Assembly (NCBI GenBank): GCA_036785375.1
Contig: JAWMAR010000396.1
Location: 1,178,001 to 1,242,000 of the forward strand
Reading direction: 5' to 3'
Source: Leucoraja ocellata
Taxonomy: Eukaryota
Length of the DNA stretch: 64,000 bases
Below the pieces are notes generated by a model, which worked only from the letters and a program-made list of their open reading frames with translations, made no database searches and had not been told where the DNA came from. Positions 286 to 61,600 of this stretch are shown one piece after another. Position 1 is the first letter of the stretch. Every line of letters starts with the position of its first letter. Position numbers and translations under genes: made by a program.

Positions 286-501
286 GAGAATGGATGGCTC
301 AGTGGTCCACTTCTCAAACCTAATTTACTTCGGTTTTCTCCATGTATGTGTTTTTTGCAAGGCCACCTGGAACCCTGTGGACTCATTGCCCATTCTCAAC
401 CCCTCCCCTTACCCGTTCTCTCAATCACATTCCTTTGTGTTTTAAGTCCCATTTCTTTCCTAAAAGGCAGTCGTGAATGAAATAGGATGGTAGAACAATG
501 T

Positions 502-902
502 AGACAAAAATACTGGAAAAACTTAGCGGATGAGGCAGCAGCTATGGAGCGAAGGAAATAGGCAACGTTTTGGGTCGAAACCCTTCTTCAGACTGATATG
601 AGGGTGGGGAGGGCGAGAAGAAGAAAGGAAGAGGAGGAGCAAGCTGAGGGAGAGCTGAGAAAGTATGGACTCTCTGAAATTAGAGGTCAATGTTCATACC
701 ACTGGGTGCAGACTGCCCAACCGAAATATGAGGTGCTGCTCCTCCAATTTACGGTGGTGCTCACTCTGGCCATGGAGGAGGCCCAGGACAGAAAGGTCGG
801 ATTCAGAATGGGAGGGGGAGTTGAAGTGCTGAGCCACCGGGAGATCAGGTTGGTTATTGCAAACCGAGCGGAGTTCTGCGAAGCGATCGCCAAGCATACG
901 GT
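502..902 (-). mobile_element. Penelope-like retroelement 3' fragment with target-site duplication
   Basis: Minus-strand ORF ..LPVAQHFNSPSHS..RKLEEQHLIFRLGSLHP resembles the C-terminus of a PLE GIY-YIG endonuclease. Flanked by an identical 14-bp direct repeat TGGTAGAACAATGT at 488-501 and 903-916. Confidence 0.85.
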
Positions 903-3261: not shown

Positions 3262-4099
3262 GTGAGAAGTGCAGCAGGGCACATGGAATGATTTATTCGA
3301 CAAACTTAAATGGTGGTCGTCTTCTCAAAGCTCTAACTTCCTTGTTAAATAATATTGTAAATAATGGTTATTAAAGCATGGAAATTCTGATTTATTATTA
3401 AATTTGTCTTGTGAAATAGCATTTAACTTGTGACAAAAGGGAATGATTATTGTGTGTAGGGTACTCAGAAAGTTGGTGTGACAGCTGGAAACTAACTTCA
3501 ACATGCATGTAAAAAAGGCCCAGAGTGGGCTTTATGAGTCAAATGTTACGATCTCTGTCACAGTTTTAAATGTATTTCATTTCAGATTTCTCCTCTAAAT
3601 GTTGCTCAGCATCTTCCAATGAATAAAGCGTTGTCTAAAACTGAGGCACAACACCAAAGCAGACCCGCAGGACAGTTCTGGCTTGCTCACCTTGGTAACA
3701 AGTGAGCTTCTGGAACTCAAGTCCCATTTTCACATGTTTATTGAATGGCAGTTAATTAATTCTTCAACGATTAGGAGAGATTTCCTTCACTCAAGGACAC
3801 TCTTGTCCTCCCTTGGGTACTCATCTACCCAGACAGTTCCCAAGGGGCCAATACTTAGTGCTGGCTATATTGAAAGTAAATTGCTTTCATATAATGGGTG
3901 CTATGAAGATCTTGCTTCTCCTGCTCTGCACAGTGGCCAATACCTTCATAAGAAAAATAACAAGCCTGCCAAACCACTGAAACTAGTTCCTGATTGACAA
4001 AGTTGCAGTGAACAGAGACTTCTGAATCATCTGGACCCTTGTCTCCCCTTCCCTATCTTGTTGAAATGCTAAGTCACAACTTTCATGGAAAAAAGTATG

Positions 4100-4730
4100 A
4101 AAGCTAGGGATAGTTAATGGAGACAAAACAACATTTAAAAGAGATTTGAACAGGTACATGGATCGGAAAGGCTTAGAGAGATATCGTCCAAATGCAGGCA
4201 GCTGAGACAGACAGGTGGTGTAGTTAGGTTGGCATAAGCAAATTGGACTGCAGGACCTATTCCCGTGCTGCATGACTCTGAGAACAGTTTATTATGGTCG
4301 AGGAGGTACTAGATATCCTCGGGTATCTGAAGGTAGTTAAATCTTCCAGGCCTGATCAGATATATCAGAGGATGCTGTCGGAATCTCGAGAAGAAATTGA
4401 AGAGGCCGGATTAGATATTTCAATCATTTTTACACATGGGTCAGGTGCTGGATGACTGGAGGGTGGTTAATGCGCCTCTATTTAAGAAAAGCTGCAAAAC
4501 CTTGGATCCATAGACCAGTGAGCGTAACCTCTGTTACTGGAGAGGATTATGAGTTACATTGGCCTTCATCAGTTAGGGTATTGAGTGCAGAAGTTGGGAA
4601 GTTATGTTACAGTTGTGCAAAACGAGGCCTCATTTGGAGTATTGTGTTCATTTTTGGTCACCCTACTAGGAAGGATATCTGTAAGCTGGGAGGAGTCCAG
4701 AGAAGATTTCTGAAGATGTTGCCAAAACTT
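4100..4730 (+). mobile_element. Degraded CR1 LINE fragments
   Basis: Remnants such as RGLIWSIV../KDICKLGGVQRRFLKMLPKL plus CR1 3' UTR-like sequence. Confidence 0.65.
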
Positions 4731-5494
4731 GAGCCCCCCCCCCCCCACTACCTGAAACATTAATTTCCTTTGTCATGGGCATGTTGTGGGCCATTTCCAT
4801 ATTGCCTTATAATTATTCTTGGAACTGACTGTCTAGTTCTGCTGCCTGCATTTTGTTCCACTCTTCTCTTTGAACCTAGCTTGGTTCTCTGGTTTGATGG
4901 CAATGATGTAATGGGGAATGTGCCCATCATGAGGTTACAGATAGTAGTAAAGTGTACATGTGTACTGAAAGATGTCTCATTTTAAATTGCTTGACTTGTT
5001 GATCAGTCTCATTTATATGGTGAAAAAAACATTGTGTGTCAGGGTAGGAGAGGGACGCCACGAATGGTGATGCAATGCACAAGGGAATCTGTGGCAGTTG
5101 GATTAGTGGGGGCAAGGTGATGCACGTGTTTCCATGAGCTGATTGTGGCTTCATCTGTCCCAGACCCAGTATTGTTGTTAGGTCACTCAGGACTCTGGCA
5201 GCCCACTCGATACAGGTGTCACAGAACTGCTCAGTGCTGAGGATTAAGTCCCCTACCCATCTGAAGAAAGATGTTAGATGGTGACTTCCTTGCCTATGTT
5301 TCAAAAATACTGTAGACAATGCTGACAATTTGAGTTACAAATTTTTCTTGCTACATTGGTCTTTCAGCATTACAATGAGCTGTAATTGCTGTTTACATTG
5401 CACATTTGGCTTGATAAATAAGTTGGACAGATCTGACTTTTGTGCCTATGTAATTTATCTTTTTGAATTAAATCAATTAATTTTACCCTGACAG

Positions 5495-5969
5495 GTGACT
5501 CTCATGGTCCACCAAACCATCACACAGGCCATTCGCAAGAAATGAGGCGAGATCATAGTGCCGAGCGGGACCCTGAGCGAGGACCTCCTTTCAGGGGATC
5601 CCAGGACTGGGGGGATCACCGCGATAACAGAGGGTCTGCAGAGAGGCGAGGTCCACCACAGGACTACCACGATCGTTTTGAGGGACCCGATCAATTCCAC
5701 GATGACTTCCGCAAGGACGAGCGATTCGGTCACCGGCCGCGGGAGTTTGAGAACCGTATGGGTCCGAACCCTCATGAGGAGGGTTGGCGAAGGGGTCCTG
5801 GTCCTCAGCGGGATTTTCCTCCTGATCAGGAGTACAGGGAATTTGGGGACCCGGAGCAGAGGGGCCCAGGTCGGTGTCCACCCCAAGGTTGGGACGGAAG
5901 GAAAGCCCCGGAAGAGCGATTCCCGAGGGAGCCTGAAGAAGCACGTTTTCGTGGGCGGAGAGATGACAG
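5495..5969 (+). CDS. WDR33: WDR33 internal coding exon
   Basis: ACAG acceptor, AG|GTGGGA donor. GDSHGPPNHH..ERGPPFRGSQD..DERFGHRPREFE..ERFPREPEEARFRGRRDD matches human GDSRGPPNHH..DKRFGHRLREFE..ERFPRDPEDPRFRGRREE. Confidence 0.95.
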
Positions 5970-6089
5970 GTGGGAACAAATTTCCAACAATTATTGAGTG
6001 GGAGACTGAGGTGAAGTTCTATTTAATCAAGAATTCTTTATTTTTATTCACAGTTGTATACTGAACTGGATTTAAAAAATCATCAGATC

Positions 6090-6897
6090 GTGTTAGTTTA
6101 TTGTCATATACACCAGGGTGCAATGAAATTTCTTGGTCAGATACAGCTCGCAGAGTATACCGTGTATAGTGTAACGATAAATACACTGATGAGTGTAAAA
6201 CCGCAGAATGGTGCAATATTATAGTACAAAAAAATTAAAGTACAATAGCAATAAGCGAATGAGGTAGAGTTAATAGTGAGGGTACAAGGCAACACCTCTG
6301 GGAATGGGATATGAAAGAGATGATTGGTTCTGGAACTTGATAGCAGTGGCAAAGAAGTTTTTGAGTCTGGACATCCAAGCTTTCAATCTGCATCTTCTCC
6401 CAGAAGTAGAAGAGGGAAAAGGGAATGGTCAGCATGGCAGGCATTCTTGACAATATTTTCAGCCTTCCTGATGCAATGCACTGTGAAGAAAGTGACGAGC
6501 CTGTGATTGGGCTGTTTATCACTCTCTGCAGGTTCAGACGGACGAGAGCAGAGCAATTGCAGTACCAGTTTGAGGTGCCATCCCGCCATAATGCTTTCCA
6601 CGGCACATCTGTAGAAGTTGGAGGGAATCCCTGTGGGCATACTGATTCTTCTCAGATACCTAAGAAAGTAAATACACTGATGCATTTTCTTGATCACTGC
6701 ATCAGTTGGAAGGAACCAGGTTAGGAGATATGAATGAGTAGAAGCTTGAAACAGTCGAAGATCTCTGCAGCTGCTCCATGGTTGAGCATAGGATTTTGTT
6801 CAGTTCTCGCTTCCATTGATCAACAATCAACCCATTTGTCTTGCCGATGTGAAGGGCTAGGTTGATGTCCTGACACCATAACACACGTTTCTCCATC
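6090..6897 (-). mobile_element. Rex-Babar-type LINE 3' fragment, interrupted by a CR1 insertion
   Basis: Minus ORF KKMHQCIYFLRYLRR..NFYRCAVESIMAGW resembles the Rex1/Babar RT C-terminus. Sequence appears to resume briefly after 9157. Confidence 0.7.
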
Positions 6898-9156
6898 ACG
6901 GGTGGGTTTGAACCAAAAAGCGCGGGGGTGGAGTCAACAACGTGGAAGCGTATCTGTGCAGCTAACGGGAAAGAGAATCTAGGAAAGGTCACGTTTAAAC
7001 TAACAGGGCAGGGGGGTGGGACCCAATGCAAGGAGATAGAAGGCCATAAAAGGAGGACAAAAGCAAAAGGTAGAAGGGAGATAAGAAAAGCTCACCTGAA
7101 AGCTTTGTGCCTTAATACGAGGAGTATTTGAAAGAAGGTGGATGATTTGAATACGCAGGTAGTAGTTGAGGGATATGATATAGTCGGAATTATGGAGACA
7201 TGGCTCCAGGGTGACCAAGGCTGGGAGCTAAACATGCAGGGGTATTCAATATTCAGGAAGGATCGACAGAAAGGAAGAGGAGGTGGGGTGACATTGCTGG
7301 TTAAAGAGGAGATTAATGCAATTGCAAGGAGAGACATTAGCTTGGATGCTGTAGAATCGGTATGGGTAGAACTGAATAGTCAAGGGCAGAAAAGGCTTGT
7401 TGGAGTGGTATACAGACCACCAAACAGCAGTTGGGAGGTTGAGGATAGCATCTAGGAGGAAATTAGGGATGCGTGCAGCAAGGGTACAGCGGTTATCATG
7501 GGTGACTTTAATCTACATGTAGATAGGGCCAACCAAATTGGTAACAGTGCTGAGGAGGATTTCCTGGAATGTATACGTGATGGGTTTTTTAACCAATATG
7601 TAGAGGATTCGACTTGAGGGCAGGCCATCCTAGACTGGGTATTGTGTAATGAGGAAGGATTAGGTAGCGATCTTGTTGCGCAAGGCCCCTTAGGCAACAA
7701 TGACCATAATACGGAGTAATTCTGCATTAGGATGGAGAGTGACACGGTTAATTCAGAGACTGGGGTCCTGAACTTGAATAAAGGAGACTTTGAAGGTATG
7801 ATATGGGAATTGGCTAGGACAGACTGGCAAATTCTACTTAAAGGGTTGACAGTGGAAATTCAAAGGCGAAGATTTAAAGACCTCATGGATGAACTCAAGA
7901 AATTGTTCATCCCTGTCTGGCGAAAAAATAAAACTGGGAAGGAGGCTCAACCGTGGCTGACGAGGGAAATCAAGGATAGGGTTAAAGCCCAGGAAGAGGC
8001 ATATAAATTGGCCAGAAGAAGTGGCAAACCAGAGGACTGGGAGAAATTTAGAACAGAGGAGGACAAAGGGGTTAATTAAGAAGGGAAAAAAGGGATTGCA
8101 AGAAAGCTTGCGGGGAATATAAAAACTGACTAAATGTTTCTGTAGGAATGTAAAAAGGAAAAGATTAGTGAAGACGAATGTAGGTCCCTTACAGTCAGAG
8201 ACAGGTGAATTTATAATGGGAAACAAGCAAATGGCAGAATAATCAAAGAGTACTTTGGTCCTGTCTTCACTAAGGAAGACACAAACAATCTCCCGAAAAT
8301 ACTAGGGGACCGGGGATCTAGCGAGAGAGAGGAACTGAATGAATCCACATTAGTCGGAAAATGGTGTTAGGTAAACTGTTGGGACTGAAGGCAGATAAAC
8401 CCTCAGGGCCTGATGGTCTGCATCCCAGAGTACTCAAGGAGGTGGCCTTGGAATTGTGGATGCTTTGGTGAAAATTTTCCAATGTTCTCTCGACTGGATG
8501 AGTTCCTGTGGACTGGAGGGTACTCCACTTTTTAAGAAAAGAGGGAGAGTGAAAATGGGGAATTATAGACCAGTTAACCGTACATCGGTAGAGGGGAAGA
8601 TGCTTGAGTCTATTATTAAAGATGTTATAGCAACGCTTTTGGAAAGCAGTGACAGGATTAGTCAAAGTCAGCATGGATTTATGGGGAGATCATGCTTGAC
8701 TAATCTTCTGGAATTTTTTGAGGATGTAACAAGTAGAATGGATAATGGAGAGCCTGTGGATGTAGTGTATCTGGACTTTCAAGAAGCATATCACAAGGTC
8801 CCACATAAGAGATTAATGTGCAAAATTAGTGCACATGGTATTGGACAGGAAAATGTTCCCGGTGTTGGGGGAGTCCAGAACCAGGGGTCACAGTTTAAGA
8901 ATAAGGGGACTGAGATGAGGAAATTAGGACTGAGATGAGGAAAAACTTTTTCACCCAGAGAGTTGTGAATCTGTGGAATTCACTGGATGTTTTCAAGAGA
9001 GAGTTAGATGTAGCTCTTGGGATTAAGGGTATCAAGAGATATGGGGGAAAGCCGGAACGGGGTACTGATTTTGGATGATCAGCCATGATCATATTGAATG
9101 GAGGTGCTGGCTCGAAGAACCGAATGGCCTATTCCTGCACCTTTCTGTTTCTATTT
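6898..9156 (+). mobile_element. CR1 LINE, 5'-truncated and internally deleted ORF2 (APE endonuclease + RT remnants)
   Basis: LCLNTRSI, YDIVGIMETWLQ, GVVYRPP, NYRPV, SCLTNLLEFFEDVT, DVVYLDFQEAYHKVPHKRL with stops and frameshifts. Deletion junction near 8845; CR1 3' tail at the end. Confidence 0.95.
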
Positions 9157-28644: not shown

Positions 28645-28945
28645 AGGGAGGAACTGCAGATGCTGGTTTAAATCGAAGATGGACACAACAAGCTGGAGTA
28701 ACTCAGCGGGACAGGCAGCAGCTCTGGAGAGAAGGAATGGGTGAGGTTTTGGGTCGAGACCCTTCTTCAAACTGAAAGTCATGGGAAAGGGAAACCAAAG
28801 ATATAAACCGTCTTCGTTATATCTCCCATTTCCCTTTCCCGTGACTTTCAGTCTGACGAAGGGTCCCCACCTGAAAGGTCACCCAGTCCTTCTCTCCAGA
28901 GATGCTGCCTGTCCCGCTGAGTTTAGTTCAGCTTTTTGTGTCTCT
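28645..28945. mobile_element. Penelope-derived fold-back element (two inverted terminal units)
   Basis: 28682-28805 is approximately the reverse complement of 28818-28942. Confidence 0.85.
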
Positions 28946-29407
28946 CTAAGGTAAATATGGGAAAGCGGAAAGGAATCAGATGGGACTGGAGGTGGGATCA
29001 CATTGAAGACGGAGAAAGAGAGAGATGTAGTGGGAGAGGAAAAAGAACAGGGAGGGGAAGGGGGTTGAGGGGGAGAGTGAGAAGGTGACAGGGAGAGAAA
29101 GATGTAGTGGCAGGGAGAGGATGAAATGGGAGAAAGAGGGAGGAAAAGAAAGAAATATATGGTGAGGGAGGAGAAGGAGAAGAGAAAGAGAGGGTGGAGG
29201 AAGACTGAGTGAGGGAGGGAGGGGTACAGCAAGATGAGGGAGGGGGGGAGATGGAGGTACAGTGTCCTCTGACAGTCAGACACGCGGTGTGTGCGCCCTC
29301 ACCGGCCGGTTGGGCCCGGTGTTAGTGTATGATCAGTCCGCGGCCCGATGCTGTGCTCTGTGGACTGGTCTGGACTAACCAGTGTCCTCTCTCACCACCT
29401 TGTGCAG

Positions 29408-30463: not shown

Positions 30464-31320
30464 GTGAGGACTTCATTCCAGCTGTTTGTCAGTGAGGATC
30501 AGTTTGTGTGCGTGCGTGCATTTGTGTGCGTGTGTGTAAGGCTGGTCACACCTGTTATGTATGTGTATGTCAGTTTATCTGTTTATATGAATGTGAATGT
30601 GTGGCATATCTACACGTGTTTCCATGTATGATGTGCCCTTGTGTGTATTTCACGTGCAAAATGTGCTGGTGTGTGTGTGCGTGATCTGCTGGTGTGCGTG
30701 TGTGTTTGTTTCGTGTGCATGATGTGCTGGGTGTGTGTATGTTCCGTGTGCGTGATGTGCTGGTTTGTGTGTTGTATGTGAGTGAAACACTTGTCTGTGT
30801 ACTCTACGTGTTGCGTGTACTTCTGTGCGTGTCTGCATGTATATATGAACGTGTATATAAGCAAACGTGCGTGGACACGGGTCTTTGTGCATGTGTACGT
30901 TCCCTTGCATCTCTTCATCTGTACCAGTCCCTTCCCTCTTCACCAAACGTATCCGCTCCATTGATATAATTTACCCTTTCCTCTCTGGTTCCTCCACCCT
31001 GCCTCCCCTGCAGAGATGATGACAATATTGGGAGGATAAGAAATGGGACCAATGTAGTAGATTAAACGAGTGGTTGATGGTCAGCATGAACTAAGTGGGC
31101 CGAAGGGCCTGTTTCCATGCTGTATCTCTTTATGTATCGTTTTTTCTGGTCATGTCTGTGACGGACTCCTGCAGGTCTGTGCGGGATGACCTTCACTGTT
31201 GTGTGTGGACATCCACATTCTACCTCCGCCCTACACTGTGGGAGAGGGAGGCAGTGGCACACGGCGGGATTGTTGCCGGCGTCTCGTGGGTATTCACTGC
31301 CTTTCCTTGTGCCTGTCCAG

Positions 31321-31441
31321 GAGAGTTTATCATTGGCCGTGTCATCAAGGCAATGAACAACAACTGGCACCCGGACTGCTTCTGCTGCGAGATCTGCTCG
31401 GTGGCCTTGGCGGACCTGGGTTTTGTGAAGAATGAGGACAG
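31321..31441 (+). CDS. LIMS2: LIMS2 exon 4 (LIM2 domain)
   Basis: TGTCCAG acceptor, AG|GTAGGC donor, 121 bp. [41 protein letters not shown]; NNNW and LADLG are LIMS2-type. Confidence 0.96.
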
Positions 31442-36195: not shown

Positions 36196-36690
36196 ATGTG
36201 TGGGAAGGAATTGCAGATGTGGGTTTAAACCGAAGATAGACACGAAAATCTGGAGTAACTCAAGCGGGTCAGTCCAAACGCAAATTGGAGGAACAGCATC
36301 TTATATTGGGTAGCTTACAACCCAGTGGCATGAATAGTGATTTCTCTAACTTCAAGTAAGCCATGCATCCCCTCTCTCTCCATCCCCATCCTCATCATCA
36401 TAATGGTTTCACTGTTGTCCTGTTGAGTTTCACTAGTTGTACAACTTGTTATTACTTAGCCTAAGCCAACTATGGACCATTGTGGGCTCCACCTTTGTTT
36501 GATCATCGTTACTTTTTGCATATCTTTCATTCATTCGTTCTATCACTCTCTAAATCACAATCGATATCTCTCATTTCCCTTTCCCCGACTCTCAGTCTGA
36601 AGAAGGGTCTCGTCCCGAAACGTCTCCCATTCCTTTTCTCCAGAGATGTTGCCTGACCTGCTGAGTTACTCCAGCTTTTTGTGTCTTTCA
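36196..36690 (+). mobile_element. Penelope-like 3' fragment with an inverted terminal piece at its 5' end
   Basis: RKLEEQHLILGSLQPSGMNSDFSNFK* remnant at 36279-36359, terminal unit at 36590-36690, inverted partial copy at 36196-36271. Confidence 0.8.
36597..36624 (+). ncRNA. Minimal hammerhead ribozyme-like core in a Penelope terminal unit
   Basis: CTGAAGA-A-GGG-TCTCGT-CCC-GAAA-CGTC: CUGANGA and GAAA boxes around a 3-bp stem II, then GUC. Stem I pairing is weak. Confidence 0.55.
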
Positions 36691-37033: not shown

Positions 37034-38032
37034 CTAGAGCTCGGACTTGCCACTGAGCGAGCTCTCGTTGGTCTTGGTCTCGTGGCTGACGGACTGCGTC
37101 CTCTTCCTACGGCCGCATACGAAGTGGCAGAATCGCTCGCGGAACTTCTCGCCGACGAAGAAGTAGACGATGGGGTCGAGGCAGCTGTTGAGGCTGGTGA
37201 GGCAGGAGGTGATGCGGTTGCTGAGGGCCATCAGCCGCCGCTGCCGGCAGCCGACCTGCGCCGTGCCGCTGGTCAGGATGTAGAGGTAGCGGTTGATGTG
37301 GTACGGCACAAAGCAGATGAGGAAGATGGTCAGCACCAGGATGATCATCTTGATGGCCTTGTCCTTCAGGTGCCTCTCGATGCGGTTGCCCCGGCGGAGG
37401 CTGTGGATGATGAGCAGGTAGCAGGTCACGGTGATCACGAAGGGAACCACAAAGCCCACCGTCAGGGGCACCAGGGCGAAGGTGGAGGTCTTCTCGCGGT
37501 AGAGCTGGAGGCAGACGGTGGTGGTGTTGCTGCTCTGCAGGGTCTGCGGCGCTCCCAGCATGGGAGCCACCCCCACCACCACCAACACCCACAGCGCCAC
37601 ACAGGCCATGTTGGCATAGAGCGGCTTGCGGAAGCGCATGGACCTGACCGGGTAGACGATGGCCAGGAAGCGGTCGGCGCTGATGCAGGTGAGGAAGAAG
37701 ATGCTGGCATACATGTTGAGGTAGAAGAGGAAGCCGGTGATGCGGCAAGGCACCTCGCCGAACGGCCAGTGGTTCTGGCTCAGGTGGTAGACCATGCGCA
37801 TGGGCAGGATCAGTACGTAGGACAGGTCGGCCACTGCCAGGTGCATCAGGTAGATGTTAGTGGTGGTGTTGGTGTTGTTGTCGCAGGAGAAGACCCACAC
37901 AGCGAGGATGTTGCCCACAAACGCCAGCACAAACACCACCCCGTAGAAGGAGGAGAAGAAGAGGTTCTCCTCGGCACTCTCCTGGCCACACTGTGGACCA
38001 CTGGCATTGCTGGGCAGGAGTGGGTACGCCAT
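37034..38032 (-). CDS. GPR17: G protein-coupled receptor 17, 332 aa, single coding exon
   Basis: 7TM ORF with QCGQE, LMHLAVADL, NHWPFGE, GFLFYLNMYAS, ADRFLAIV, CLQLYREK, PYHINR, DPIVY and C-terminal KTNESSLSGKSEL, as in human GPR17. Kozak GCGACCATGG at 38032; acceptor TTGTTTTCCAG just before 38077. Confidence 0.97.
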   Translation of the reverse strand: MAYPLLPSNASGPQCGQESAEENLFFSSFYGVVFVLAFVGNILAVWVFSCDNNTNTTTNIYLMHLAVADLSYVLILPMRMVYHLSQNHWPFGEVPCRITGFLFYLNMYASIFFLTCISADRFLAIVYPVRSMRFRKPLYANMACVALWVLVVVGVAPMLGAPQTLQSSNTTTVCLQLYREKTSTFALVPLTVGFVVPFVITVTCYLLIIHSLRRGNRIERHLKDKAIKMIILVLTIFLICFVPYHINRYLYILTSGTAQVGCRQRRLMALSNRITSCLTSLNSCLDPIVYFFVGEKFRERFCHFVCGRRKRTQSVSHETKTNESSLSGKSEL

Positions 38033-38124
38033 GGTCGCCCTCACAGAGTGCAGGCCACGCACAGCTTCACTGGACGCCTGGAAAACAAGCAGAGGCTGAA
38101 GATCAAAACCTGTCCACGCTGGAG

Positions 38125-38320
38125 GTCAGAAATCAAAGCAGGAAACACTCAGCACACCAGGCAGCATCTGTGGAGAGTGAAATGGTTATCGTTTCTAATC
38201 TGAGAACCTTTGCCAGAACCCATGGCTCTGACAATGGAGTCTTGATCCGAGACATTAACTCTGTTTCTCTCTCCACGGATTTGTTCAGTGTTTTCTATCT
38301 ATTTCCACATCTTGCAGATG
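38125..38320. mobile_element. Old Penelope-derived fold-back element
   Basis: GCAGCATCTGTGGAGAG..TTTCTCTCTCCACGGAT inverted arms; same family as 51330-51510. Confidence 0.6.
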
Positions 38321-41300
38321 GTTGCTGCGATTTGTGAGGCTCATTGCAAACTCACTACTTCTTGTATACTGTGTATATCCGACTAAAGATTCTTTGTTTT
38401 TTTTCATCCATTTCCCTTTTGCATTTATGGTCTAAACACATGCACTGTCACTTCCCTCTGTGTAATAAGGACTCTCTTTGCAAACTGCTCGGTGTGCATT
38501 TTCTATTCTAATGGATGATCATAACTTCAAATGTGGATTATCTTCCTTTCTCCACAGATGCAGCCTGACCTGTTGAGTATTTCCATCACTTTCCTTTTTT
38601 AATTTCTATTCTATACAAACTACTATCAATTGTCAGCGCTGCTGACTGTGCTTTCACTGAACCCCATTATGAAGGCTTCATTGCAAACTGCTAATTGCAT
38701 TCGCAGAGCTCATTACAGCTGTTCACTGTGAATCGAAACAGTTTCATTACAAACTGCTAACCATGCACTTGCATTAGACAAAATGTGTTAGAAGGAACTG
38801 CAGATGCTGGTTTAAACCGAAGATAGACACAAAATTAGACAATTGTTTGAGGGCCAGAGGCAGACTTTGAGCTGTGTGCAATATACACATGGTCTTTAAG
38901 AGATATAGATGTGCAAGAAGTGTACAAGGAAACATAAAACAATACTGTAGGTGTGTTTGGCTTCTATAATGAATGTTAGCCTGCAGCATAGTGTGCAGAC
39001 TGTTGAAATAAATCCTACAAATGGTGACAAATGTTTAGTAACATTGCAAGTAATGCAGTAATAAATATGACAGGTAATCTTTGTAGCCCACAATAAGGAA
39101 CCTATCCCATAGTGGTGACTGCAGTATAGTCAGTAATCAGAGCATGTACTATAATTTTAATTTAATGGATTTTGCTGCTTTTATAAATGTTTTGGTGTGA
39201 ATGTGTGTACATACATATCCATTACCTCAAGTTCCGCATATTTTTAGATAGTTATTAAGATAGTTTAGATAGTTATTAAGAGTCCCTCAACTTTAAACTG
39301 CCTCAACACATATCCAGCTGCCTATAATAATCAATATTACTTGCAGAGAGAGATGAATGTAACCTTCACAGTGAGTATGTGGTGTAAGGTCCCCGTTGTA
39401 ATAAATGAACAGACAGTTAAGATTATGCTAATTGCATAATGATGATTATGCATTGATGAAATGAGCCTGCTGTGATGAGTGGCAAACGTTGTGTGGAATG
39501 GAGCTACCACTTGTGGCCAGTAGGGGTCAACACCGCTCAGTCCGGCGCGTGACAGAGACACCACATGGAAACAGGCCCTTTGGCCTACTGAGTCTGCGCC
39601 AACCATCAACTGCCCATTTACTGTAATCCTACGTTGATCCCATTTTTACTCCCTGCATTCTCAACAATACCTCCGAGGGTCTAGCACTCGCCTCTACACT
39701 AGGAGCAATTTACAACAGCCAGTACACCTAACAACCCATGTGGCTTTTCGATGTGGGAGCAAACCGGAGTACTTGAAGGTAACCCACACGATCTCAAGGA
39801 GGACGTGCAAACTCCACACAAGCAGGGCCAGAGACCAGGATTGAACCTGGTTCTCTGGTGCTGTGAGGTGGCAGTTCTGCCCGCTGTGCCACTGGTGTGC
39901 GATTTCTGTGGGCTACAGGGAATGAATGAGGAGAAAGGAGCTTTCAGTGGTATCCATGTGAGTAAGTTGTTCTTAAAACTGGACAAAGGTAAAATAAATA
40001 GTTACAAAGAATTAGTTATAAAAATAAAAATTAGTCAATAATATCATCACCGGCACAAACAACATAACTGTGCTGGTTGGCTTCAAGGTTTATTTCAGCA
40101 ACTGCCCTTGTAATGATGGAGTGATGGATGCGAGATCCACACTGCCCTAATTTGACAATAGGAAGCAACTGACAATTTTGTCAACTTTGAGTTATTGCTT
40201 GTTTTAGGGTATTTGAGATATGCTCTACACAATGGTGAACAAAATAAGTCTTCTCTGAGTACAATTTGAAAATATTTATACCAGAGAAGTAAGAAATTCC
40301 ATCACAGAGAGCTGAAAGAAAAAGACGTTTTCCTCATTTACAAGAAAACGCCTTTCTGTCAGTTGCATCATTTTGTCAAAGTAGGGCAGCATACACCTCA
40401 AGACAGACACAAAATGCTGGAGTAACTCAGCGGGTCAGGCAGCATCTCTGGATAGAAAGAATGGTCGTTTCAGGTCGAGACCCTTCTTCAGACTCAAAAT
40501 CAAACACCTCATCCTGGATTCTCCTTGGCTTCAGAGGGTGACTGGAGAGCCCGTGTCGGCTGGTCAATGGAAGCTCCTCTCCCCTGGTGTTCAGGAGGGG
40601 GAGTTGGCAGTGGGCACCCTCTCCACACCACCTTTACTGCAATTCTCAATCATTTTGCCAATGTGACTGATAAGGTTTTCATTGCAGAGATTCAAACAGG
40701 CGAGGACATGGAGAGATGGGAAATTAAAAGAAAGACAAGATGGAGAGAAATGAAAGCCAGTGGTTTGATTTTCAACAGGGCTCCGACTGGCTGAATTTTG
40801 AGATGCATTTTGTTAGACTAAGAAAGAAAGCAAACGACCAGTGAGGGTCGACACATCCCACACACGGTGACTGCAAATCTAACAAAGAGTTGTGAGACAA
40901 AGAACAAGGACTCAGGATTTCTCAGCAAGCTGCTGAACTCTCTCGTTGCTTACTCTGCACAGGGTGCCTGTCGGAAAGCACTGGATAAGATTCAGTTACC
41001 AGAGATAGAAGCTGTTCCGCTAAAAAGAATGCAAGGAATGCTTTGCTCAGACCCCGAGCCCTCCTTCATCCTCCTTTGGCCAGCGGTTCAATGGAACAGC
41101 CCCCAGACAGGGCCAGACTGAGGTTGAGTTTGTAATGACTCTTGGAGGCGTTCTCTGATACCCTACTCAGACAATCTTCAAACATTCTTCAAAGCGACTT
41201 GGAGAGACTCGGGGGGATTCTGTAGTGACTAGGGATCATCTGACACAAAGCACCTTCTCACCAGAATCAGGCAGGCTGATGGAGAAAGACCAGCTGCATC

Positions 41301-46263: not shown

Positions 46264-46360
46264 GGTACACAAAAATGCTGGAGAAACTCAGCGGGCGCAG
46301 CAGCATCTATTGAGCGAAGGAAATAGGCAACGGTTCGGGCCGAAACCCTTCTTCAGACTG
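46264..46360 (-). mobile_element. Solo ~97-bp Penelope terminal unit
   Basis: Same unit as 502-597, flanked by AGTGTCCAGTTATA / AGTGACCAGTTATA. Confidence 0.75.
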
Positions 46361-46699
46361 AGTGACCAGTTATAAATGATTAAAGCATTAGTTATGGATG
46401 ATTAAAATGTCATTTCATCAACCAAAACACAAAGCAAGATACTGGCCTGAAAACTATCAACTTCATTAGTTTCTGTTTGACTGATAAACAGTAGAGAATA
46501 TTGGTGTTACAGTAGTGTAGAGGCCAGGTTACTGAATGCAAGTTCTGGATCTCCAATCCAGAGAAATGTATCCAGATTCTTTCATGGTAGGAGGGGAAGT
46601 TCAATTCAAATAATTAATTAAATATGAAATGTTATAAGTTGCTAGTTGTAGTAATGGATTGCCATAATAACTCATCACTCTCACTCTTCATTGTATTGG

Positions 46700-53619: not shown

Positions 53620-53942
53620 AAAAGCAAAGAACTGCAGATGCTGGTTAATACACAAAATGACACAAAGTGCTGGAGTATCTCAGCAGATCAGGCAGCATCT
53701 CTGGAGAACATGGATAGGTGACGTTTTGAGTCAAGACCTTTCTTTAAAAAAGTAAATTTAAGGTCCATTGCAGGTGCAAGAAGAGTCTCAAACCAAAACA
53801 TCACCTATCCACGTTCTCCAGAGCTGCTGAGATACTCCCGTACTTTGTGTCCTGTAGGCCAGTCTGATGAAGGGTCGCGATCTGAAAAGTCACCCATTCC
53901 TTCTCTTCAGAGATGCTGCCTGTCCAGCTTTTTGTGTCTATC
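53620..53942. mobile_element. Cluster of three Penelope terminal units (one inverted pair plus a tandem copy)
   Basis: Arms at 53655-53745(-), 53775-53851(+), 53860-53942(+). Confidence 0.75.
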
Positions 53943-55148: not shown

Positions 55149-58100
55149 CAGCCGCCAAGGATTCTATCCGTACTCTGAAGAACCATCAAAGCATCAGCTC
55201 TGGTTCTCTCCCAGCTTCGCGGGTCCATGTCAGATTTGAATAGAGACAGCACCACTAACAGCAGAACCAGCTGCCAGCGCTGGGACAGTGTGACCGGTGG
55301 CACTGACCAGCCAGTGGGCCTGTTGGCAAAGCCAATGGGAGCTGTGGAGCTGGTGTACAACTGAGGAGCTGGTTCCCACATTCAGCAGGAGCTGCACAAC
55401 AGGAACTAGCGAGGCAGGCTGGGGAAGATGTATTAAACAATCCAGATCAAAGCACAGGGAAAACTGAGCCTCAGAACGAAAATCCTTTCTGCCAAGGAGG
55501 TCCGTTGGGGTCAGGTGAATGATCCGTAGAGGGCAGCACTGGCGGTGAGAAGCTCATTGTACTCACCCAGACTCCGATGGACTGTAAATAAATCCTCAAA
55601 GTCATGCAAATAAGCAAACCTTGACTGACAAATGTGACCTTCTCAGGGTGCAGGATGACTACAGTGGGACCCACACATGATACTTTCATTCTGTATGGTG
55701 CACTTTTAAATGTGAGGAAGACACAGTGGTATTATGGTCATAAAGTGGCCATTCACTGACCTGTCCCGGGGTGAACTCTGCAAGGCTGGTGAGGATGAGC
55801 CTGTTGTAAAGAAAATACTTTAAACTGCTGCAGGAAAGTAAAACAGATGTGGAAATCTGGTTCAGTGTTTGGAGTATCCCACCATTGACTATATCCACAT
55901 TCCTATGTCCAGTGTTATAGAACCCACTTGTTGGCTGTCAGTGTCAAATAATGTGGAAATGGCAGGATGCTTGGACCAAACGTTTGTTGTTGTTCAAGTC
56001 ATTGTAAAGCGCTCTGAGTTGCAACAAACAAAGTGGCCCTCCATCATTCCCCAGTCTCCATCAAACAATCCACGGAGCTGCCTGTTGCTGGGCGTGTGCC
56101 TGAAAACAGCCCGGGTGTTAGTTGGGGAGATACAGCATGGAAACAGGCCCTTCGCCCCATCGATCATTGATCACCAGTTCACACTAGTTATCCCACAGCA
56201 CACGACAGGCAATTGACAGAGGCCAATTAACCTACAAACCCATAGTCTTTGGGATGTGGGAGGAAACCAGAGCACGCGGAGGAAACCCACATGGTCAAAG
56301 GGAAAACGTGCAAACTCCACACAGACATCACGTAAGGTCAGTAATATCAGGATTGAACCTGGGACTTTGTCACTGTGAGGCAGCAACTCTGCCGCAGAGC
56401 CATTTTACCACCTTATCTTCAGATGATATAGAGTGTCATCTCATCGAGGCCTGCAGCAACTACTGTGGTGTTATGGGGTGGGGGTGATTCCCACACGGCC
56501 TGGGTTCAAGCCTATACGGACACCCAGCTGCGTGCTGAACCATGTCCCTGGCTGAGCTGCTTCACACACAGGGTTAACCTTGAGCTAAGCCCAGCCCACT
56601 CCACAGACCCTCTACCGCACTGCTGGCCCACTCCCTTAAAGAAATAAACTCTGAAAACCCTTCTTGATTGAATCAGTGAGCTGCCCACAGGACACCCGGC
56701 TTCACGGGGATGTTTTAGTGGAATTATAGCAGGAGAAAGTCTTGACATTTCAAGCAGAGGAAATCTGAAATGCCAACAGAAAGTTCGCAGCAGAGGGTAG
56801 GGTCCATTTCTTCAGATCTACAGCAGCCGGCTGATTCCCAGACCAGGTCCCCTGTTACCTCTCACACTTCCCCGTGTCGGCCGGGCTCTCAGCTGAGAAC
56901 TCTCCCACCGCTGGTCACAGGCTTGTGGGTACATGGTTCTTCCAGGTGATTGCAAGTTCCCAAGAGAGAGTGGATCCGAGAGAGTGTTACACTGTCCCAG
57001 GAACTGCTGAGGCACCGGAAATAAGCAGAGATGGGGCCTGCCCATTCGGCCCATCACTTTCATTCAATCAGATCACAGCTGATTTACTTCAGTGTTATTT
57101 CTCTGCACTAATCCCAGATTCCTTCATTCCCTTACCTTCCACATAACTCTTGATCCCCACACTTAATACTGTTCTCAATTGATGCTCCACATCAATTACC
57201 ATCATCTGCTTTGATCTGTCATTTTCACACCTTACCCTTCCTTACCTCTGGACCCTCTCTCCTGACTGTCAGAAGAAGGGTCTCGACCTGAAACATCACC
57301 TTTCCCTTTTCTCAAGAGATTCTGTCTGACCCACTGAGTTACTCCAGCTTGATGTGCCCATCTTTGGTTTAAACGAGCATGGGTTCATTCCTACCCAATT
57401 CCATGTGATCTCACCAGCCTTCCTTGCAGGATCTTGTCACAGGCCTCATCCTGAATGACTGGCGCCTTATTTTCACTGCAAGGTCACCAGTTGCAGGTAC
57501 TCCAGTCAAGGGGATAACTTTGCTATGTCTGACCTGTGAAGCCCTGTAAGGATTATACTCATTTCAACAAGATCAGCTCTCATTTTCTGACACCCTATAG
57601 GCCCAATCTGTTGAATCTTTCTTTCTAGGACAAGTCCCAATCCCAAGAATCCATCTTGTGAACCTTCGTTCTCCATCACAACTCCACCTTGGATCGGAGT
57701 CCAGGCCTGTGCACTATCACCCAGGCATAGTCATACATCATTTCAAGAAACCCTCGCAACACTTGGACTCAAATCCTCCCACAAGAAAGACAATGTACTG
57801 ACGGCCTTCTAAATTGTTCATGGTATTTGCACATAAACATCTGCTGCTTCATGAGCAAGGCATGTTGGGTTTCTGAACAACACCTTCAATCTCTCACCAC
57901 GGATTTTAAAAAATCACCATTTTTAAAAATTATGTAAATTGATGACCTGATTTTACCATTTATATCCCATCTGCCATGCCCTTTCCCATTCACGGAACTT
58001 GTCTCTCCCCACTCCCCCCCCCCCCCCCCCCCCCACCCGAGTACTCTCTGCCTCATCTTCACTGCCCACACAACTTGGATATATGACACTCCATCCCCCT

Positions 58101-61300: not shown

Positions 61301-61448
61301 GAATTGTTGTCCCAGCTTCCCCAGTCTGACCCAGGAGCTGAAATGCTTCATCCCCGGAACCATTCCAGTCAATATTGCAGCGTTTATGCAGGTTCAACCT
61401 ACTCCCTCTGCATTGTGTGTCTGTGGATACAAGAAAAGCTTATGCTTG

Positions 61449-61600
61449 AAGGTAGACAAAAACCTGGAGTAACACAGCGGGTCAGACGGCATCTCTGGAG
61501 AAAAGGACATTGCTCCAGAGATGCTGTCTGACCCGCTGAGTTACTCCAGCTTTTTGTGTCTATCTTCCGTTTAGACCAGCAGGTGCAGTTCCTTCCTACA
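61449..61600. mobile_element. Short Penelope-derived palindrome
   Basis: Arms 61449-61500 and 61513-61566 are nearly complementary, with a 12-nt loop. Confidence 0.85.

What the first reader, a model, noticed from the sequence alone, without database searches (positions are those of the whole stretch)
36590..36690. Dispersed minimal hammerhead-ribozyme motifs in a Penelope terminal unit
Seen: CTGAAGA-A-GGG(N6)CCC-GAAA-CGTC on + here, sense to LIMS2 pre-mRNA. Related motifs lie at about 560-597(-), 28853(+), 40465-40493(-, sense to the GPR17 intron), 46327-46358(-), 53864(+) and 57270(+), mostly with a core mutation. Established: Penelope-like elements carry minimal hammerheads with very short helix III that are proposed to act as dimers. 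Inference: a high-copy reservoir of ribozyme motifs inside host introns. Whether sense-oriented copies still cleave or are purged is an open question, and this is my best candidate for an under-described system here.
Basis: partly seen in the sequence, partly recalled or inferred. Interest (0 to 1): 0.7.

Follow-up and report, generated by a model that had tools for sequence, protein, structure and literature searches.

The report
Penelope hammerhead fossils in fish introns
The motif is a real copy of the tiny self-cutting-RNA signature at the end of a known kind of jumping gene (Penelope-like), found about once every 2 kb in the sampled introns of what is likely a skate or ray and facing both ways equally often, so it is likely inert debris, apart from an unconfirmed hint that forward-facing copies keep one catalytic base more often.

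Summary
Observation confirmed. The motif at 36597-36624(+) is the minimal type I hammerhead in the terminal unit of a 5'-truncated Penelope-like element. The GIY-YIG C-terminus lies 240 nt upstream, and young tandem full-length relatives (RT plus GIY-YIG, Neptune-type linker) carry the same motif. It is sense to a 37-kb LIMS intron. This copy has a weakened stem II and a broken helix I, and the haplotig copy lacks G12.

Of 617 units, 313 are sense and 304 antisense, so there is no sign of purging. Intact cores are commoner in sense (84/197 against 58/192, p=0.012). This post hoc excess comes from G12 alone and is not replicated genome-wide. Core decay otherwise looks like CpG loss. Helix I is only 2 bp in all subfamilies. 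Short copies start 2-5 nt before the core and almost never at the cleavage site. RNA reads from a relative show no pile-up of ends.

This is a known kind (Cervera and de la Pena 2014), at very high copy number. This scan has already reported the family many times, in this genome and others.

The parts
36197..36272 (-). Inverted 5' copy of the element's tail (head-to-head PLE insertion layout); boundaries approximate
   Evidence: 36235-36272(-) matches 36653-36689 at 87%; 36194-36272 matches the long tail of other copies
36270..36359 (+). C-terminal 29 codons of the PLE GIY-YIG endonuclease and its TAA stop
   Evidence: 21/30 identical to the C-terminus of the intact 1221-aa ORF in L158; 83,515 first-look candidates in the genome
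36360..36593 (+). Pyrimidine-rich 3' UTR between ORF stop and hammerhead
   Evidence: Same layout, about 95-300 nt long, in 39 of the 40 EN-plus-hammerhead copies listed
36594..36596 (+). AGT in TCAGT: 5' strand of the 2-bp helix I and preferred 5' end of short copies (inferred RNA start)
   Evidence: Base composition falls to background by -6 in 144 of 217 solitary copies; A/T-rich loose ends at -3 to -1 in contigs of runs of unrecorded kind
36597..36624 (+). Minimal type I hammerhead: CUGAAGA, extra A, stem II (3 bp here, A11.4>U), GAAA, palindromic ACGU helix III, GUC site; predicted cut after 36624
   Evidence: numbering from established hammerhead convention
36625..36689 (+). Tail up to the first preferred 3' end (inferred internal RT start); position 1.1 is U here, which breaks the first pair of helix I
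501..599 (-). Related unit, G12>A
28680..28943 (.). Head-to-head pair of units (28680-28783 on -, C3>T and G12>A; 28840-28943 on +, core intact, C15.2>G)
40405..40500 (-). Related unit, U16.1 lost
46268..46365 (-). Related unit of the young UUCG-loop subfamily, A15.1>C
53659..53940 (.). Cluster of three units; 53858-53940(+) has the core intact and C15.2>A
57264..57359 (+). Related unit, U4>A and G16.2>A

Best explanation
The motif is the minimal hammerhead at the end of a truncated Penelope-like retrotransposon, one of about 44 copies per 100 kb in the sampled introns; these copies face both ways equally often and are likely inert and decaying near-neutrally. Shown: linkage to the GIY-YIG C-terminus, intact tandem parents with RT and GIY-YIG, a core unchanged across six subfamilies, a 2-bp helix I, CpG-type decay, and no loss of sense copies. 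Inferred for the parent element: its RNA likely begins at the TCAGT just before the core. Reverse transcription likely starts internally at one of two tail sites about 65 or 105 nt past the cut site, on uncleaved RNA. Copying from the first terminal unit would give the 95-135 nt short inserts with 10-14 bp target duplications; copying from the second gives ordinary 5'-truncated elements like this one. Cleavage would need a second motif (the ACGU palindrome) and probably the element's protein. A lone intronic copy would therefore rarely cut, and slow intronic cutting is reported to be tolerated by splicing, so there is little for selection to purge.
For: EN remnant upstream. Tandem parents with periods of about 3946-3987 nt, terminal regions 358/360 identical. 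RVT_1 E=1.4e-6 and GIY-YIG E=0.012, both below Pfam cut-offs. Orientation 313:304, 95% CI of the sense fraction 0.47-0.55; 174:168 for units with no opposite partner within 200 nt. Non-CpG core identity 0.913 against 0.898 in tail control columns; four CpGs 43-51% intact. Helix I has 2 pairs or fewer in 52 of 54 complete motifs, and monomer folds give stem II pair probabilities of 0.003 or less. Only 2 of 264 solitary copies start at the cut site; 186 start before C3. No place with many molecule ends in the raw-read RNA runs of a relative. Focal copy: helix I pair 1 broken, and the haplotig copy has G12>C and A14>U. Median distance to the nearest same-strand complete motif is 13 kb. Literature: no monomer and low dimer activity (PMC4209133); the anole motif needs protein, uncleaved RNA is the template and no reads end at the site (PMC11167929); slow intronic hammerhead cleavage did not block splicing (as cited in PMC2995048).
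Against: Intact cores are commoner in sense copies (84/197 against 58/192, p=0.012). With the other ten core bases intact, G12 is kept in 84/101 sense and 59/96 antisense copies (p=0.0008); strict neutrality does not predict this. The core is slightly better kept than tail columns (1.5 points, Wilcoxon p=0.001), though requiring the alignment to span the core favours that. There is no positive control for purging: two LINE-like families were also unbiased (179:165, 23:34). The sample is seven long genes. The RNA start is inferred from insertion ends, not mapped. The RNA runs are from a relative and fragmented libraries blur ends.
Confidence: 0.85

Rival explanations
1. Sense copies with a complete core are kept cleavage-competent. 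Loss of G12 is selected against only when the rest of the core is intact and the motif is transcribed in the sense direction, for example because slow or protein-triggered cutting affects intron turnover.
For: G12 kept in 84/101 sense against 59/96 antisense copies with the rest intact, but 55/91 against 60/90 when the rest is mutated. The other seven CpG positions show no such excess. Same sign in both gene sets (41/47 against 32/54, p=0.002; 43/54 against 27/42, p=0.11) and in the three large old subfamilies. Permutation over 16 site-by-stratum tests gives p=0.011. Identical result on reverse-complemented input.
Against: Found after many looks at the data, and the second gene set alone is not significant. 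The palindrome bases needed for a dimer (C15.2, G16.2) show no excess. The overall effect weakens without gapped copies (p=0.055). Sense copies are slightly younger (tail divergence 0.109 against 0.134, p=0.024). Helix I is 2 bp. The focal site has lost G12 in the haplotig copy. Selection on about 10^5 sites is hard to motivate.
Confidence: 0.07
2. One reading: sense copies cleave host pre-mRNA and are purged or inactivated by selection.
For: The two youngest subfamilies lean sense (38 of 60) while older ones do not (136 of 284; Fisher p=0.033), which could reflect slow loss of sense copies.
Against: No deficit of sense units (313:304) or of sense ORF fragments (31:25), and intact cores are more common in sense, not less.
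Confidence: 0.04
3. In this lineage the motif no longer cleaves even in active elements and is conserved as a promoter or protein-binding element at the RNA 5' end.
For: Helix I is 2 bp in all six subfamilies, and the youngest family has a GUU site. Predicted monomer and dimer folds favour inactive hairpins. Copies do not start at the cut site. Core invariance across subfamilies is not significant against the rest of the unit (0/11 against 19/76 columns, p=0.11). No two-sided covariation.
Against: All 11 core bases, the extra A, G10.1-C11.1 and the ACGU palindrome are kept in every subfamily, and the two changes inside helices keep pairing as U-G. A 2-bp helix I is described for Drosophila virilis Penelope (PMC4209133), and the anole motif cleaves with protein (PMC11167929). 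This rival concerns the parent and is compatible with inert intronic copies.
Confidence: 0.2

Closest known systems
Minimal type I hammerheads (min-HHR) in pLTRs of metazoan PLEs (Cervera and de la Pena 2014, PMC4209133; read abstract, results, discussion and the start of methods, parts 1-2 of 4)
   Same: Core, extra base between 9 and 10.1, G10.1-C11.1, palindromic 15.2/16.2 with no loop 3; mostly single dispersed motifs from truncated PLEs, and pairs on opposite strands
   Different: Helix I is 2 bp (4-5 bp in their Schistosoma families; 2 bp only in D. virilis) and stem II is 4 bp. Extrapolated number of complete motifs is about 10^5, against 4,000-9,000 in coelacanth and Xenopus by their descriptor. 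No cartilaginous fish is named in the parts I read.
Anolis Poseidon element PAc (PMC11167929; read passages and the second half of the main text)
   Same: Tandem arrays, hammerhead in the pLTR, two internal 3' ends with an optional tail between them, AT-rich targets, no reads ending at the cut site
   Different: Here the motif lies 164 nt before the first Met, whereas the PAc ORF starts in stem II; this ORF has the CX2-5CxxC linker of Neptune/Nematis
Neptune-clade EN+ PLEs (PMC8557442, PMC3846280; passages)
   Same: Single ORF with RT, C-x4-C-x2-C linker and C-terminal GIY-YIG; direct and inverted pLTRs, short TSDs
   Different: No tree was built, so Neptune against Nematis rests on the linker and the vertebrate host; short end-units outnumber ORF fragments about 11 to 1 (617 against 56)
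Animal non-LTR retrozymes (bioRxiv 10.64898/2026.07.22.740005; abstract and first part of results)
   Same: Non-coding, hammerhead-bearing, derived from pLTRs, present in one chondrichthyan; distribution over introns tested in Xenopus, not by orientation in the part I read
   Different: These units are dispersed monomers or inverted pairs ending at the parent's tail sites, not head-to-tail hammerhead arrays
Conserved intronic type I hammerheads of amniotes such as RECK (passage in PMC6155905)
   Same: Hammerhead in a host intron, of retroelement origin
   Different: Those are canonical and conserved across species; this copy is minimal, degenerate and differs between the two haplotigs

Membership tests
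EN+ Penelope-like element | Single ORF with RT and C-terminal GIY-YIG | tested here: met
   1221-aa ORF in L158 with RVT_1 E=1.4e-6 and GIY-YIG E=0.012, both under the curated cut-offs; the window holds only its last 29 codons
EN+ Penelope-like element | Tandem arrays, pseudo-LTRs, inverted 5' copy, optional tail, short TSD | tested here: met
   inverted tail in the window; no TSD identified by eye for the focal insertion
Neptune clade | CX2-5CxxC linker between RT and EN | tested here: met
   C-x4-C-x2-C in the L158 ORF; definition from PMC8557442
Neptune clade | RT phylogeny | not tested
   No reference PLE proteins were on hand
PLE minimal hammerhead | Conserved core CUGANGA, GAAA, UH | tested here: met
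   Intact in the focal copy and in all six subfamily majorities
PLE minimal hammerhead | Unpaired base after A9, G10.1-C11.1, palindromic 15.2/16.2 | tested here: met
PLE minimal hammerhead | Helix I of 4-5 bp | tested here: not met
   2 pairs or fewer in 52 of 54 complete motifs; first pair broken in the focal copy. It matches the 2-bp D. virilis variant instead, so I file it with PLE hammerheads in the wide sense
PLE minimal hammerhead | Compensatory changes in stems | tested here: inconclusive
   Two one-sided U-A to U-G changes; A-U at 10.1-11.1 in 11 of 344 copies, not subfamily-diagnostic
PLE minimal hammerhead | Self-cleavage as a dimer or with protein | not testable with these tools
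   Needs a bench assay; RNA reads of a relative show no end pile-up
Non-LTR retrozyme | Head-to-tail arrays of non-coding hammerhead units | tested here: not met
   Units are solitary (331), head-to-head (239) or attached to EN (47) of 617; same-strand arrays were not counted separately, and the only short tandem form seen lacks the 5' half of the core

The most novel reading that the evidence does not exclude
Host introns hold about 10^5 latent, protein-switchable hammerheads, and sense-oriented ones are selectively kept competent: G12 is protected from CpG loss only when the rest of the core is intact and faces the direction of transcription. That would be a genome-scale step towards domesticated intronic ribozymes. 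A milder novelty, about even odds: the element's RNA starts three bases before the core, so the 95-135 nt units are strong-stop-like copies of the first terminal unit.
Probability: 0.07. Interest if true: 0.75.

Novelty: new member of a known kind. Interest (0 to 1): 0.27.

Why it matters
As it stands it is ordinary retrotransposon debris, but the density makes two open questions testable from sequence alone. First, whether PLE hammerheads harm host introns: here, no detectable purging. Second, whether cleaved RNA is ever the template for insertion: here, almost never. If the sense-specific retention of G12 replicates genome-wide, it would be evidence of selection on dispersed ribozyme motifs in host transcripts. 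Three paper searches listed no paper on orientation or on this motif in cartilaginous fish. The library lacks most subscription papers and I read no supplements, so this does not show absence from print.

Tried and rejected
Rfam scan: no hammerhead model matched; 9 of 10 hits were hairpin-type families, 8 of them on the two inverted pairs.

Spliceosomal intron from the ORF stop to the YAG before the core, as in D. virilis: GT at the stop and a pyrimidine tract suggested it. No GT..AG joint was among the best-supported joints shown (157 and 493 rows not shown), short copies start at A or G before the T, and the spliced form would not lengthen helix I. No longer complement to the 3' strand of helix I lies in the sense strand of the young element.

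General strand-asymmetric CpG decay as the cause of the sense excess: pooled CA:TG ratios do not differ (p=0.44). Search-strand artefact: rejected. DPE-like promoter at the ACGT: spacing is 3 nt off the recalled Drosophila rule; left as speculation.

Sequencing-run search: no RNA holder listed; same-species-label raw RNA runs of a relative were laid instead. The first descriptor script under-counted through a loop-size bug and was corrected. PDB search with the ORF: no match. Lunse et al. (dimer cleavage of PLE hammerheads) is not held; I know it only as cited in PMC6765202 (passages). PMC2377424 was seen as passages only. A planned further 100-kb replicate was not obtained, so the G12 result rests on 1.397 Mb. 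Of 617 units, 228 did not span the whole motif and were dropped from integrity counts; a further 45 were dropped for tail-based tests (n=344).

Full report
Observation. The strict motif occurs once in the window, at 36597-36624(+). A profile built from genomic copies finds 26 whole or partial units in the window and none in 797 kb of reversed control DNA. Rfam has no matching hammerhead model. LIM exons on + at 29379, 30415 and about 31320-31440, and the next one 4.5 kb past the window end, place the motif sense in a 37-kb intron that also holds the 7TM gene on -. The gene names LIMS2 and GPR17, and the reading of the organism as a skate or ray, are recalled or inferred and come from no call. 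The window is G000:C396:1178001-1242000 of a 3.44-Gb assembly that appears to carry duplicated haplotigs.

Anatomy. Upstream of the motif lie 29 codons and a stop (36270-36359) that match the C-terminus of an intact ORF at 21/30 identity, then a pyrimidine-rich UTR. An inverted copy of the tail sits at the 5' junction. A search with an RT fragment found young tandem arrays with periods of about 3946-3987 nt. One unit encodes 1221 aa from Met with RVT_1 (E=1.4e-6) and GIY-YIG (E=0.012), both just or well below Pfam cut-offs, and a C-x4-C-x2-C linker of the Neptune/Nematis type (PMC8557442, passages). Its terminal unit carries the same hammerhead with a UUCG loop and a GUU site, 164 nt before the Met.

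The ribozyme motif. Among 344 well-covered copies, six subfamilies keep all 11 core bases, the extra A, G10.1-C11.1 and ACGU. Differences fall in loop II, H17, the tail and two U-A to U-G changes. Diagnostic columns are 0 of 11 in the core and 19 of 76 elsewhere (p=0.11), and there is no two-sided covariation. Helix I has two pairs or fewer in 52 of 54 complete motifs. Predicted monomer and dimer folds favour other hairpins. In the focal copy stem II is 3 bp and the first pair of helix I is U-U; the haplotig copy reads G12>C and A14>U, which may be an allele or an assembly error.

Orientation test. I took 1,396,800 bases between same-strand CUB or spectrin exons of seven genes; nested genes were not excluded. 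They hold 617 units (44 per 100 kb): 313 sense and 304 antisense (p=0.75), and 174:168 without a near opposite partner. PLE ORF fragments were 31:25, and two LINE-like ORFs (labels recalled) were 179:165 and 23:34, so no family gave a positive control for purging. Extrapolated, the assembly holds about 1.5 million units and about 350,000 intact cores, haplotig duplicates included. Decay looks like CpG loss: the four CpGs are 43-51% intact, and non-CpG core columns are 0.913 identical against 0.898 in tail controls.

Result against my reading. Of 389 units spanning the motif, the core is intact in 84/197 sense and 58/192 antisense copies (p=0.012). Within-gene permutation gives p=0.010. Stratifying by subfamily gives p=0.011, thinning to one copy per kb p=0.031, and gap-free copies alone p=0.055. 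Without G12 the difference vanishes (101/197 against 96/192). With the other ten bases intact, G12 is kept in 84/101 sense and 59/96 antisense copies (p=0.0008). No other CpG position shows this, nor does the stratum with other core changes. The two gene sets give p=0.002 and p=0.11, and a permutation over 16 tests gives 0.011. This was found post hoc, it is opposite in sign to purging, and sense copies are also slightly younger. I treat it as an unexplained lead.

How the copies arise. Of 217 solitary copies spanning the motif, 144 lack the UTR, and their upstream bases fall to background within about five positions of C3. Contigs of two runs of unrecorded kind show A/T-rich loose ends at -3 to -1. 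TSD-like repeats of 8 bp or more flank 28 of 185 copies against 46 of 916 roughly matched shuffled pairs, and the longest (10-14 bp) mark two tail ends. Only 2 of 264 solitary copies begin at the cut site, while 186 begin before C3. This fits the anole PLE, where RT starts internally at two tail sites on uncleaved RNA, the hammerhead needs protein and no reads end at the site (PMC11167929, passages and second half of the main text). I infer that the RNA starts at TCAGT and that copying from the first terminal unit makes the short inserts; RT stalling at the motif is the alternative. Raw RNA reads of a related organism (three runs over two lays, 1-5% of each read) cover the unit deeply but show no place with many ends and no GT..AG joint among the rows shown.

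Comparison and verdict. Minimal hammerheads in PLE pLTRs, thousands of dispersed single motifs and opposite-strand pairs are described, with no monomer and low dimer activity (PMC4209133, parts 1-2 of 4). Slow hammerhead cleavage in an intron did not block splicing, whereas a fast ribozyme did (as cited in PMC2995048, passages). A 2026 preprint derives animal retrozymes from pLTRs and counts them in introns (abstract and first part of results). Searches listed nothing on orientation or on cartilaginous fish; supplements were not read and may list shark or ray motifs. Earlier notes of this scan, read only after my analyses, report the same family and the sharp 5' edge; 69 notes in this genome fit the look-up, and 8 from each of two look-ups were shown. 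Verdict: a new member of a known kind, real and most likely inert. The added value is the negative purging test and the G12 lead. Interest 0.27.

Noticed in passing
L156-L157 (G000:C1:8661500-8680000), L158, L159: Young, near-identical tandem arrays of a full-length PLE with an open 1221-aa ORF that includes a long proline-rich N-terminal part; the family looks recently active.
   Followed up: partly
L052:1787-1844; seen in G000:C77 intron stretches: A roughly 66-bp head-to-tail repeat of one subfamily's unit that starts at GAAA and lacks the 5' half of the core; the joint has 511 reads in one RNA run and is also present in genomic DNA.
   Followed up: no
L158:5004-5068; window 36625-36689: The tail forms a predicted long stem whose open part contains the first preferred 3' end, like the stem-loop RT start of the anole element; fold z-scores are not significant.
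   Followed up: partly
window 61442-61564 and 28680-28943: Head-to-head unit pairs form long hairpins that score against miRNA-type Rfam models below their gathering thresholds.
   Followed up: partly
window 36594-36689 relative to 37034-38125(-): The motif lies about 410 nt downstream of the 7TM gene's stop, antisense, so it may fall in that gene's 3' UTR.
   Followed up: no
window 36356-36361 and homologous copies: A GT donor-like sequence overlaps the ORF stop and an AG precedes the core in most subfamilies; no spliced joint was seen.
   Followed up: yes
seven sampled genes, 1.397 Mb: Neither of two LINE-like families shows an antisense bias in these introns (179:165, 23:34), unlike the recalled mammalian pattern.
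   Followed up: no
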